Assembly (NCBI GenBank): GCA_965235115.1
Contig: OZ249436.1
Location: forward strand, 32,614,001-32,678,000
DNA length: 64,000 nucleotides
Origin: Laetmonice hystrix
Lineage: Eukaryota
Direction: 5' to 3'
Part shown: positions 16,601 to 19,600 of the stretch, piece after piece
Layout of the letters: each line of letters begins with the position of its first letter
Position numbering within the stretch: the first letter of the stretch is position 1
Position numbers and translations under genes: made by a program
Notes under the pieces: generated by a model
Told to the model about the DNA's origin: nothing
Database searches by the model: none
What the model saw: the letters and a program-made list of their open reading frames with translations, nothing else

Positions 16601-19600
16601 TGTCGTCTTCCTTATCAATCAAGGTTACCAGAGATAAATTTCATTAGCCCAGATCCAGTTTCACTTATTTAGAGATCTCGTATCCAACTTCCTGTTTAAC
16701 AGAACATGTACAAGAAATGGTACAGTACTTGTTACATTCTGCCTGGTTTATAATCCAAGTACTACTGCTATCTGGGGAGGGCGTTTCCCAGGGCCAGCCA
16801 CAACTTCTCGTTTATAAGACTTGGATGTCTACTAAAGCAAAGGATCCCTTAACTTTCAAAGAAATCTTTATTAGTAATTTATTAAGTGTCTTGACGAATT
16901 AATACCAGCACAATGCATCTGTCTAAAGAACATAATAAGGTGCATTCGAAGCAATGAAAAACGAAAGAAAAAGAAAACAGAAAAGAAATGGGAAAAGTGT
17001 GTGGCAGTTAACTTAAGGACCATTTGTCTGCAGCCTTACAACGAGCCATGTTGCACAACACATATTGTATGATTATCCCGTGGAATGATTTGAAACCAAC
17101 AGGTCTTCTAAGAAAATGATGCAGAGCCCTTTAGGATTATAAATTGTTTATCATAAATTCTAGATAACATAACGAGGTAGTATCTCCTCTTACTTAAAGT
17201 ACACTCAGTGCTTAGAAACACTTAACAAATTCTGTTCCAATCCCTTCCATTTAAACGTTATCTCCATTTAATATTTTATTCATATCTGCCTGAAGGTTTG
17301 GTGTTGACTTATGACAGGACATGTACCCTCTGTAGCATGCACGTGGATTTGTGTTGCGTTTGGAATCCAGGTTCCATTAACCACTTTAAATTAATTGGGG
17401 CCCATCAAACCTTGGTCAAGAGATTAGTGACCATTATAAGACACGTAACTGTCTCATTAACGAGCACACTGATTGCTCCCCTACAAACTGTAGCGATGTA
17501 TGTGGACAGACATGGGCATGTTGTCTGGTCAAGTTTGGAATGATCACATTTAGTAGTGGTTTACCTTTCTGTCAAAATATCCCGAAGAGGCCTGATTTGG
17601 GTCCTGCAACACATACACACACACACCTTATGTTGGGGCAGTTTCAGATCTCAACTCAAGGGTACCACCATCTGCCCGGGAACCCACCACACTGACGACG
17701 ATGATATTGTAGTCGGAATATTGGGACGCATTTACATTAAGCAATACCCGCATTCTAGATAAAGAAAAGCAGGTGAGATGTCTGTTAGTTGCACAACTCC
17801 CTAAAGTCCATGGGTCTGACCCTCTAGCCAGAATCTCCACTGGGTTCTGACAATGCAGCTCAATGGTCAAACAACCCTTTGAAGTGTCTGCAGGAGCAAT
17901 ATCTTCACATCAGCAAACCTGCTTTTATTTGCAAAACCCATTCACTAGCCCAGCCTTATTGTAAACTGCCCTCAGCGTCAGCCAGCATCAGGCCGCACTC
18001 AACAGGTAGAGACATCAACGTCACATCATATACTTTGCCTTGCAAAGCGTTTCTTATTGGAATAAGGCCTCTCAGATCAGAATCAACCACACAACACAGT
18101 AAGGTGAGCCAACTGTCTTTATAGTTCTTAAAACCAAATTTACAACAAAAGTACTATCATAATGTGTATCGTACACTACTTGTGCGTAAAATATGCAGGT
18201 ACTGCTGACTATAAGCGCCTCCCATGATAACACAAAGACACCTGCTTTCACATCACATCTTGGATGTTGTTGCAGTGATTCTGCTCGCACAACTTACCCG
18301 TTATTTTTTGGTACAAGTGTGTAAGCACCTCATCACACACTGAGGGCCTATCAACCTTGGGATTCCACCTGGGTTTCTAGTCACAGGACCATGCCAGAGC
18401 AGAGCCTGTCCTAGATATTACCGTCAGGGAGAATGAAATTTTCAGGAGGGGGGTGTAGGAGCGGCATGCAGGAACTTGGGCTCTACACTTCTACTTCAAC
18501 ACACACACGCATCTTGTACTGAGCTGCAGAAGCAGCCATTACATCATGCAAGGCACTTATGATATAATAAAAGTAGACTTCTGAGACGTGTATGTGGTTG
18601 GGTTTGGAATGGTCACATTTACCTTTCTGTCAAAATATCCTGAAGAGGCCTGATTTGGGTCCTGCAAGCACACATACACACATCTTATGTTGGGGCAGAT
18701 TCAAACCTCTGAGGCAAGACCTGCCTAAGTGCCAAATGACCAATTAATAGACGTTTTCTTAACCATGTTCATAGTTGAGTGCACTAGCATGAAGCATGTG
18801 CTGCATTCTGTAGGGTCAAGCAGGTGTAAATTATTGTAGATGACACAGTTCATCTGACAGCTGCACAAAACTTACCGGGTTGTGATCCTCCAATTGTCAG
18901 AATCATAAACCATTAACTCAAAACTGTTAGGATATCATTTACATATCCTCTACTGGCTCTCGTAAGAATCTTTTTCTCCTTCACTAAGTAATACACTACG
19001 TAAGTCATCTCGCCTTAAAAGAGACAGCATACAGTACCATATTAGGCAGCAACAAAAGAAGTGCTTCCAGATATTGGATGTCTGTCTCCCATGATCAGGT
19101 CACCTACCGTTCACATCCATGATCACGAGTATCTCCGACCAATACCTGCTGTCTGCTCCACAATATTCTAACTGGCATACCAAACAACTCCACCGATTCT
19201 ACTCACACAGCTCAATACGCACTATAATACCATTTACCAACAGCAGGGATCGAAATTATCAGAAGCAATGGAGCCATTTGCTTCTCTAACATCATCAATG
19301 GCTTCCCTGAAGGCTGAGTGTTGTAAAACCCATTTTCAGAAGCCATTTGTATATTTTGCTTTCATGGAAAAATCCGTAATTTCGACCCCTGCTACAGCCT
19401 ATTACAGGTATCACGTCCAAGCACATATTGGACATCTCTAGTGAAACTTCTGATGACATGATCATGAGGTAAATTTGTGCAAATACAACGGTAGTGATGA
19501 CAGAAGCAGGGCATTCGAGGTGTCAAAAGATTAAAGGTGGGGCAGGCATGAGAGCTTGCTCTACACAATAACAGTCAGAACTCAGGGGAAAATTTGTTGC

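What the first reader, a model, noticed from the sequence alone, without database searches (positions are those of the whole stretch)
17505..18710. Duplicated 39-nt cassette exons in the GRB2 SH2-cSH3 linker
Seen: the 7.9-kb phase-0 intron between the SH2 exon (ends ..LRDMER) and the cSH3 exon (starts PKVVANYDF) contains two copies, about 1.06 kb apart, of a 39-nt unit bounded by ttgcag and gtaaa. Both encode [13 protein letters not shown] and differ by one synonymous change (TCA/TCG), while the duplicated flanks carry indels and several substitutions. TGCATG (Rbfox-type) elements lie downstream on the transcript (18545-18550, 18465-18470, 17336-17341), and the acceptors are preceded by UG-rich tracts. 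Known: GRB2 has a short linker here, its paralogue GRAP2/GADS has a long insert at this point, and downstream Rbfox sites generally promote inclusion. Inference: isoforms with 0, 1 or 2 copies would lengthen the linker by 13 or 26 aa and add tyrosines. I know of no description of this arrangement.
Basis: partly seen in the sequence, partly recalled or inferred. Interest (0 to 1): 0.8.

Follow-up and report, generated by a model that had tools for sequence, protein, structure and literature searches.

The report
Duplicated optional exon in worm GRB2
In this worm-like animal the signalling adaptor GRB2 is made with or without an extra 13-amino-acid spacer from a small optional exon that the genome carries twice; the first copy appears to be used, and use of the second is not shown.

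Summary
The 7,911-nt intron between the SH2 and cSH3 exons of an annelid-type GRB2 holds two 39-nt, AG/GT-bounded, in-frame copies 1,058 nt apart. They differ at one synonymous base. The unit has only these two matches in the 627-Mb genome, and DNA contigs of three runs link both copies at single-copy depth. One unlabelled run (X3) has spliced contigs. It shows the skip junction directly. A 132-nt contig fits exon 4 + copy 1 + exon 5 by length, depth arithmetic and a graph simulation; its junction row was cut from the output, so this is inferred. Nothing shows copy 2, double inclusion or the downstream 9-nt microexon candidate in RNA, and contigs cannot exclude them. No homologue was found in 31 distinct related introns, so the exon looks lineage-restricted. 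One other annelid-type transcript has an unrelated 14-aa insert at the same point. Best reading: a regulated two-state (0 or +13 aa) flexible spacer in an unusually short linker, plus a duplicate of uncertain use. The 0/1/2-copy ladder is unproven.

The parts
23953..24030 (-). GRB2 coding exon 1 (ATG at 24030; nSH3 first part)
   Evidence: aligns to GRB2 homologues; joined to exon 2 in X3 contig record 20
23685..23782 (-). GRB2 coding exon 2 (nSH3 second part)
22760..22900 (-). GRB2 coding exon 3 (SH2 first part); the conserved Trp (human W60) is missing at the exon 2/3 joint
   Evidence: record 20 joins exons 2 and 3 with no letters between; alignments
21700..21859 (-). GRB2 coding exon 4 (SH2 second part), phase-0 donor
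   Evidence: Pfam SH2; single match in the genome; spliced in X3
18623..18661 (-). cassette exon copy 1 (39 nt, 13 aa)
   Evidence: sequence; inclusion inferred from a 132-nt X3 contig, bin depth 4.16 = 38 x 28/256, and graph simulation
17565..17603 (-). tandem duplicate, copy 2 (39 nt, same peptide, intact splice sites); use not shown
   Evidence: linked to copy 1 by DNA contigs 17592-18647 in X1, X2, X4
18598..18709 (-). duplicated core around copy 1 (about -48 to +25); weak remnant similarity may reach about 200 nt upstream
17531..17652 (-). duplicated core around copy 2
18545..18550 (-). TGCATG, +73 from copy 1
18465..18470 (-). TGCATG, +153 from copy 1
17336..17341 (-). TGCATG, +224 from copy 2
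17638..17652 (-). 5' arm of a possible 15-bp long-range RNA helix just upstream of copy 2 (lead only)
   Evidence: -22.5 kcal/mol, 4th of 311 helices in the intron; 2 of 12 resampled introns reach it
14383..14397 (-). 3' arm of that helix; pairing would loop out copy 2 and the 9-nt candidate (lead only)
   Evidence: region unique in the genome
15299..15307 (-). candidate 9-nt microexon (TSK); use not shown
   Evidence: top score in the splice-site scan; outside the stretch laid
13603..13788 (-). GRB2 coding exon 5 (cSH3, to the stop codon)
   Evidence: Pfam SH3_1; its first 29 nt are the loose end of the X3 skip contig, with one allelic difference

Best explanation
Copy 1 is a real, optional, lineage-restricted cassette exon of an annelid-type GRB2. 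It arose in an old phase-0 intron and was then tandemly duplicated with its acceptor region. The weak UG-rich acceptors make skipping easy, and downstream UGCAUG elements probably promote inclusion through Rbfox (inferred). mRNAs carry either no copy (seen) or one copy (strongly inferred, copy 1). Copy 2 encodes the same peptide, so using it singly would not change the protein; it is a redundant, minor or condition-specific alternative, possibly held down by a long-range RNA helix (lead only). The protein effect is a two-state switch. The SH2-cSH3 span goes from 24 residues, the shortest among the GRB2 proteins compared, to 37. This most likely loosens the cSH3 from the SH2 and changes its reach and coupling to partners such as SOS or Gab (inferred, untested).
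For: Shown: both copies are genomic and linked at single-copy depth (X1: 71.9 against 72.5 and 71.1 either side); only 2 matches genome-wide. Shown: X3 has spliced contigs and a 93-nt contig of 64 nt exon 4 plus a loose end equal to the start of exon 5. Strongly inferred: the 132-nt contig leaves the genome one base past the exon-4 donor, as expected if the next exon starts with G; 132 = 64+39+29. The copy-1 bin depth of 4.16 equals 38 x 28/256, and the same arithmetic reproduces three other bins (39, 1.2, 3.52). Of 6 simulated isoform sets, only skip + one copy gives 93, 126 and 132; the other single-isoform sets give 141, 171 or 102. X3 lists no T>C change, which a copy-2 read laid on copy 1 would show. 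3 of the intron's 4 TGCATG lie within 300 nt downstream of the copies (binomial p 0.0016; window chosen by me after seeing them). 44 of 46 annelid-type proteins have the 24-residue span, against 26-30 in 31 of 32 others and 29 in human GRB2. A natural 14-aa insert at the same point in P0026 is modelled as low-confidence coil between intact domains.
Against: The junction rows for copy 1 were cut from the output, so the inclusion junction was not read letter by letter; 64+39+9+20 also sums to 132, though the simulation gives 141 for that isoform. All four runs are one sample and one study, the run kind is not on record, and the tissue is unknown. The two contigs carry different exon-4 alleles, which an allele-biased model explains equally well. 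No conservation supports function: no homologue in 31 distinct related introns. TGCATG also occurs in 16 of those 31 introns. Exon-versus-flank conservation between the copies is not significant (Fisher p 0.20, or 0.07 with indels). No experiment links linker length to GRB2 function in the papers I saw.
Confidence: 0.58

Rival explanations
1. Graded linker ladder: both copies and the 9-nt microexon are under selection and are included in combinations by tissue, adding 0, 3, 13, 16, 26 or 29 residues.
For: Copy 2 keeps both splice sites, frame and peptide, and has its own downstream TGCATG. There are 0 amino-acid changes where 2.7 are expected at the flank divergence if both copies were free (P0 0.065). 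A remnant of similarity at -50 to -200 (81 identities in 150; 14 of 1,995 control pairs score as high; 1 of 5 windows tested) suggests an older, longer duplication with a conserved core. The 9-nt candidate scores highest in the intron. Contig assembly removes one-base bubbles and rare forms.
Against: The inclusion contig is unbroken and has the length of one copy; a mixture with double inclusion would fragment it in an unsimplified graph. If only one copy were free, 0 amino-acid changes is unremarkable (P0 0.26). The remnant was not significant with stricter scoring (28 of 60 shuffles reach it), and gene conversion or a short recent duplication explains the core too.
Confidence: 0.2
2. Allele-biased, nearly neutral exonisation: one haplotype mostly includes copy 1 and the other mostly skips it because of a cis variant. 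The insert is tolerated in a flexible linker and has no regulated role.
For: The skip contig has 2 non-assembly letters in the last 64 nt of exon 4 and the inclusion contig has 0; neither is broken at the junction. The only synonymous changes of the listed kind (A>T) in the last 34 nt are at 21733 and 21712, and 21733 is where the contigs branch. If both alleles made both isoforms the raw graph would fall into 16 pieces. No homologue in relatives.
Against: A clean allele-isoform link predicts 115 and 154 nt, not 93 and 132, unless both contigs share the exon-5 allele. Assembly simplification therefore reshaped the graph, and phase cannot be read from it. The clustered TGCATG elements and the strong donor suggest regulation.
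Confidence: 0.15
3. The copies are intronic pseudo-exons, an assembly artefact or a dispersed repeat, and the 132-nt contig is something else.
For: The junction itself was not displayed.
Against: Only 2 genomic matches; the inter-copy region is unique; three runs link the copies in one contig at normal depth; length, depth and simulation all fit inclusion.
Confidence: 0.05

Closest known systems
Tandemly duplicated homologous exons and mutually exclusive exons, with selector/docking RNA structures (Ivanov and Pervouchine 2018, PMC6071210; first fifth of the text read)
   Same: Two equal-length homologous exons in tandem with duplicated flanking intron; a flank that may pair with a distant site.
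   Different: Skipping both is a real isoform, so it is not 'one and only one'. The copies encode the same peptide, so choosing between them changes nothing. The candidate helix would loop copy 2 out rather than expose it.
GRB3-3, the known splice variant of human GRB2 (PMC10968029 and PMC13729540, passages)
   Same: Alternative splicing of a GRB2 gene.
   Different: GRB3-3 deletes 40 residues of the SH2. Here all three domains stay whole and a spacer is added between SH2 and cSH3. It is the only variant named in the passages I saw.
GADS/GRAP2 linker (PMC6669380 and PMC9981690, passages)
   Same: An unstructured insert at the same position in an SH3-SH2-SH3 adaptor; in GADS it is a site of phosphorylation and caspase control.
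   Different: GADS: 94-129 residues in birds and mammals, Gln- or Gln/Pro-rich, a separate gene. Here: 13 residues, optional, in GRB2 itself, no shared motif.
Rbfox-regulated cassette exons and 3-27-nt neural microexons (PMC8742874 passages; PMC13174390 abstract start)
   Same: Short, frame-preserving exon with weak acceptor and downstream UGCAUG; a 9-nt candidate nearby.
   Different: The 39-nt copies exceed the 27-nt definition; tissue pattern and regulator untested. That downstream binding favours inclusion is recalled; the passage says only that the outcome depends on position.
P0026 / locus L076, an unnamed annelid-type GRB2 transcript
   Same: A 14-residue insert at the same exon boundary.
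   Different: No recognisable sequence similarity by eye; whether it is optional is unknown.

Membership tests
GRB2 orthologue | SH3-SH2-SH3 in one reading frame | tested here: met
   five exons give a 220-aa open frame; Pfam SH2 and SH3 for exons 4 and 5; exons 1-3 align to GRB2
GRB2 orthologue | groups with GRB2 and is the genome's GRB2 | tested here: met
   falls in a 28-row clade (99/94) with Lamellibrachia, Ridgeia and Paralvinella proteins (no full-length GADS or GRAP in the tree); one match to the SH2 exon in the genome (one candidate scored)
GADS/GRAP2-type adaptor | long Gln/Pro-rich linker (94-129 aa in birds and mammals) | tested here: not met
   at most 29 residues could be added; composition differs
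Cassette exon | AG/GT-bounded, frame-preserving, no stop | tested here: met
   both copies
Cassette exon | both skipping and inclusion seen in RNA, copy 1 | tested here: met
   skip junction direct; inclusion inferred from length, depth and simulation
Cassette exon | inclusion seen in RNA, copy 2 | tested here: inconclusive
   no contig laid on it in one run, and contigs drop one-base variants
Mutually exclusive exons | tandem, homologous, equal length | tested here: met
Mutually exclusive exons | one and only one exon is included | tested here: not met
   the exon 4-exon 5 skip contig exists
Mutually exclusive exons | competing selector/docking helices | tested here: inconclusive
   copy-2 flank pairs with 14383-14397 (-26.7 kcal/mol duplex) and the copy-1 flank more weakly (-18.4); near the level reached by shuffles; no covariation data
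Rbfox-enhanced exon | UGCAUG in the downstream intron | tested here: met
   +73 and +153 (copy 1), +224 (copy 2); none within 300 nt upstream
Rbfox-enhanced exon | inclusion depends on Rbfox binding | not testable with these tools
   needs knock-down or a minigene
Neural microexon (3-27 nt) | length 3-27 nt | tested here: not met
   the copies are 39 nt; only the 9-nt candidate fits
Neural microexon (3-27 nt) | neural-specific inclusion | not testable with these tools
   one run, tissue not on record
Dispersed repeat | many unrelated genomic copies | tested here: not met
   2 matches of 2 candidates in 627 Mb; flanking unique

The most novel reading that the evidence does not exclude
A splicing-encoded ruler in a core RTK adaptor. 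Two identical 13-aa modules and a 3-aa microexon are added in steps, under Rbfox and a long-range RNA helix, to tune the SH2-cSH3 distance by tissue, in a lineage that first shortened the linker to almost nothing. Other annelid-type GRB2 genes (P0026) may have refilled the same spot independently.
Probability: 0.15. Interest if true: 0.68.

Novelty: new variant of a known kind. Interest (0 to 1): 0.42.

Why it matters
GRB2 is among the most conserved signalling adaptors, and the only splice variant named in the review passages I read damages its SH2 domain. A natural isoform pair that differs only in SH2-cSH3 spacing gives a clean test of how linker length affects interdomain coupling and partner choice. 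The pair of peptide-identical copies, told apart by one base, is a ready case for watching what happens to an optional exon just after duplication: addition, redundancy or silencing. The mechanism class (new cassette exon, tandem exon duplication) is common, the exon seems lineage-restricted and no function is shown, so the interest is moderate.

Tried and rejected
RNA search: no run on record as RNA was listed; this blank is not used as evidence. X3 was judged to be RNA from its spliced contigs. X3 has no cover in the bin holding copy 2 (depth 0 at 17524-17779); contigs show presence, not absence, so this does not exclude its use. The stretch laid (16500-24150) left out the 9-nt candidate and exon 5, so their junctions were not tested directly. 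Contig depths 28 and 46.5 are not an inclusion rate. The cSH3 exon alone found no candidates in the word-indexed protein search. The profile search of representatives returned mostly multi-SH3 proteins and was not used. Cassette peptide against 80 related loci: best ungapped score 27, shuffled peptides mean 26.4 and maximum 36, self 71. Cassette DNA against 43 related introns: only short matches, best E 0.054. Similarity downstream of the cores: none beyond about 11 nt. Duplex scans of five flank or exon queries: each was matched or nearly matched by the best of 8 shuffled queries, so the helices are leads only. Added tyrosine as an internal SH2 ligand: rejected, because the +2 residue is Asp and the GRB2 motif is pY-x-N (PMC13729540 Table 1). 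Replacement for the human Y160 switch: not supported, because Y160 aligns to Lys and E87 to Pro here. A hidden 3-nt exon supplying the missing Trp: rejected for the X3 contig, which joins exons 2 and 3 directly. Literature: searches found no description of a GRB2 linker exon or of annelid GRB2 splicing. The library lacks most subscription journals and I read no supplementary files; splicing-event tables there could list it. Three look-ups of earlier scan findings returned nothing. The exon-2 coordinates were off by one and were corrected.

Full report
Observation. On the minus strand two 39-nt segments, 18661-18623 (copy 1) and 17603-17565 (copy 2), each follow ttgcag, precede gtaaa and encode [13 protein letters not shown]. 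They differ at one synonymous base and lie 1,058 nt apart. They sit in a 7,911-nt phase-0 intron between the last SH2 exon (21859-21700) and the cSH3 exon (13788-13603). The duplicated core is 121 columns with 6 substitutions and 3 indels in the flanks. A scan of the intron for in-frame AG...GT segments passed 12 candidates; the top three were a 9-nt segment (15307-15299), copy 1 and copy 2 (my own simple scoring).

Not a repeat, not an assembly slip. A genome search returned 2 matches of 2 candidates in 627 Mb. The inter-copy region and the region 14340-14700 each matched only themselves. In runs X1, X2 and X4, which cover all 30 bins of the stretch and so behave as DNA, a single contig spans 17592-18647 and links the two copies at the depth of its neighbours (X1: 71.9 against 72.5 and 71.1). 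These runs are one sample and may be the source of the assembly, so they check the assembly, not the species.

The gene. Five coding exons give a 220-aa open frame with SH3-SH2-SH3 layout. The SH2 exon has one match in the genome. In a 45-row tree the protein falls in a 28-row clade (99/94) that holds the named Lamellibrachia, Ridgeia and Paralvinella proteins. Only one named mollusc and no full-length brachiopod, phoronid or nemertean protein was in the tree, so 'annelid-type' is a sequence type and the host is probably, not certainly, an annelid.

RNA evidence. No run was on record as RNA, but X3 has spliced contigs: record 20 joins exons 4, 3, 2 and 1. Record 19 (93 nt, depth 46.5) is 64 nt of exon 4 plus a 29-nt loose end that equals the start of exon 5 but for one base: the skip isoform is seen directly. 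Record 18 (132 nt, depth 28) matches 21699-21763, one base past the donor, and then leaves. That fits a next exon starting with G and does not fit intron retention. Its other pieces were cut from the table. Three things place copy 1 there. First, 132 = 64+39+29. Second, the copy-1 bin has depth 4.16, and 38 x 28/256 = 4.156, while the same arithmetic reproduces three other X3 bins. Third, of 6 simulated isoform sets only skip plus one copy gives 93, 126 and 132 nt; adding the 9-nt exon gives 141, two copies 171, the 9-nt exon alone 102, and mixtures fragment. X3 lists no T>C change, which a copy-2 sequence laid on copy 1 would show. I take inclusion of copy 1 as about 90% likely but inferred. 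Copy 2, double inclusion and the 9-nt exon are neither shown nor excluded, since contigs drop one-base and rare variants.

A complication. The skip contig has 2 non-assembly letters in exon 4 and the inclusion contig has none. The two possible synonymous changes of that kind are at 21733 and 21712, and the first is where the contigs branch. This could mean allele-biased inclusion. However a clean link predicts 115 and 154 nt unless both share the exon-5 allele, and a full four-way mixture gives 16 pieces. Graph simplification has intervened and phase cannot be read.

Regulation. The cassette acceptors have 10 of 22 pyrimidines against 13-17 at constitutive exons. TGCATG lies at +73 and +153 of copy 1 and +224 of copy 2: 3 of the intron's 4, p about 0.002-0.003 for a 300-nt window that I chose afterwards. 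Against this, 16 of 31 related introns with no homologue of the cassette also hold the hexamer. Rbfox binds UGCAUG and acts by position (PMC8742874, passages); that downstream binding favours inclusion is recalled. The flank 35-49 nt upstream of copy 2 can form a 15-bp helix with 14383-14397 (-22.5 kcal/mol, 4th of 311 helices; 2 of 12 resampled introns reach this), and the copy-1 flank pairs with the same site more weakly. Pairing would loop out copy 2 and the 9-nt candidate and leave copy 1, which matches what X3 shows. It resembles the duplicated-arm model of Ivanov and Pervouchine (PMC6071210, first fifth read). Shuffled queries do about as well, so it is a lead only.

Is copy 2 under selection? 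Unresolved. Exon identity (38 of 39) is not significantly above the flanks (p 0.20; 0.07 with indels). No amino-acid change is seen where 2.7 are expected if both copies were free (P0 0.065) or 1.4 if only one were (P0 0.26). A remnant at -50 to -200 (14 of 1,995 control pairs as high; 1 of 5 windows) hints at an older, longer duplication. It was significant under one scoring (0 of 60 shuffles) and not under another (28 of 60).

Relatives. Of 80 proteins measured (200-260 aa with the SH2 anchor motif, plus the Solemya protein; five annelid-type hits were dropped by that filter), 46 are annelid-type, many near-duplicates. Of these, 44 have a 24-residue span from the end of the SH2 into the cSH3, 1 is an intron read-through and 1 (P0026) has a 14-aa insert at the same point. 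Of 32 other-type proteins, 31 span 26-30 and the Solemya protein 39; 2 further rows lacked a cSH3. Human GRB2 spans 29 (1GRI). Of 80 loci kept from 112, 43 hold the whole intron (31 distinct, 290-3,309 nt, same position), 7 are spliced (5 short, 1 the P0026 insert, 1 other-type), 29 lack the SH2 exon and 1 was not parsed. None holds a recognisable homologue of the cassette. No close relative's genome was available, so the age of the exon is open.

Protein effect. The joined isoform was not folded. The natural insert of P0026 was modelled as low-confidence coil (residues 163-171 under pLDDT 50) between confident domains. By analogy the 13-aa peptide is a flexible spacer that takes the span from 24 to 37. 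Reviews describe the human linker as allowing interdomain allostery and a Y160-E87 dimer contact (PMC13729540, passages). Here Y160 aligns to Lys and E87 to Pro, so that switch cannot be carried over. The insert's tyrosine is not followed by Asn at +2.

Comparison and verdict. It works like an ordinary regulated cassette exon that has been tandemly duplicated. It is not a mutually exclusive pair, because skipping both occurs. It is not GADS-like beyond position, and it differs from GRB3-3, which deletes part of the SH2 (PMC10968029, passages). Nine literature searches found no description of it. PMC8373072 and PMC2394523 were seen as search listings only; the one GRB2 passage in bioRxiv 10.64898/2026.09.05.749416 concerns a DOCK microexon; no supplements were read. 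Verdict: real, partly validated at RNA level, a new variant of a known kind; interest 0.42.

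Noticed in passing
window 23685 / 22900 (exon 2-3 joint): The Trp at the start of the SH2 (human W60; present in at least 90% of 44 aligned homologues) is missing. The X3 contig joins the exons with no extra letters, so this is a one-codon loss, possibly from a 3-nt acceptor shift.
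   Followed up: partly
window exons 3 and 5: Both residues of the human Y160-E87 dimer contact are replaced (Lys and Pro), as in most annelid-type proteins aligned.
   Followed up: partly
L076:1-1022 (protein P0026); P0003: Another annelid-type GRB2 transcript has an unrelated 14-aa insert at the same exon boundary, and the Solemya protein has a 39-residue span there: this intron position may gain sequence repeatedly.
   Followed up: partly
window 15663-16479: Tandem array of a 44/88-bp unit (about 9 copies of the 88-mer, 93% matches) between copy 2 and the 9-nt candidate.
   Followed up: no
window 19653-19840: A second, very recent 94-bp tandem duplication in the same intron.
   Followed up: no
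window 21154-21172 and 14652-14670: A 19-bp long-range helix (-25.1 kcal/mol) would bracket all three optional segments. Several other top helices also have their 3' arm in 14100-14700.
   Followed up: partly
window 18224-18491: The only long intronic X3 contig listed in this intron (270 nt, depth 4.5) lies between the two copies and covers one TGCATG site; it may be pre-mRNA or a retained piece.
   Followed up: no
window about 21900-22900: Very high-copy dispersed repeat in intron 3 (summed depth up to about 68,000 in the DNA-like runs).
   Followed up: no
window 59790-63585 (-), 53664-54029 (+), 2240-3570 (+): Neighbouring coding pieces: dynein heavy chain C-terminal exons, a weak PKD-domain hit below the Pfam cut-off, and Hyd_WA propeller repeats (16 long ORFs scanned).
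   Followed up: no
L047:6202-6246: A 45-nt in-frame AG/GT segment in the same intron of another annelid-type locus scored as a possible unrelated cassette.
   Followed up: no
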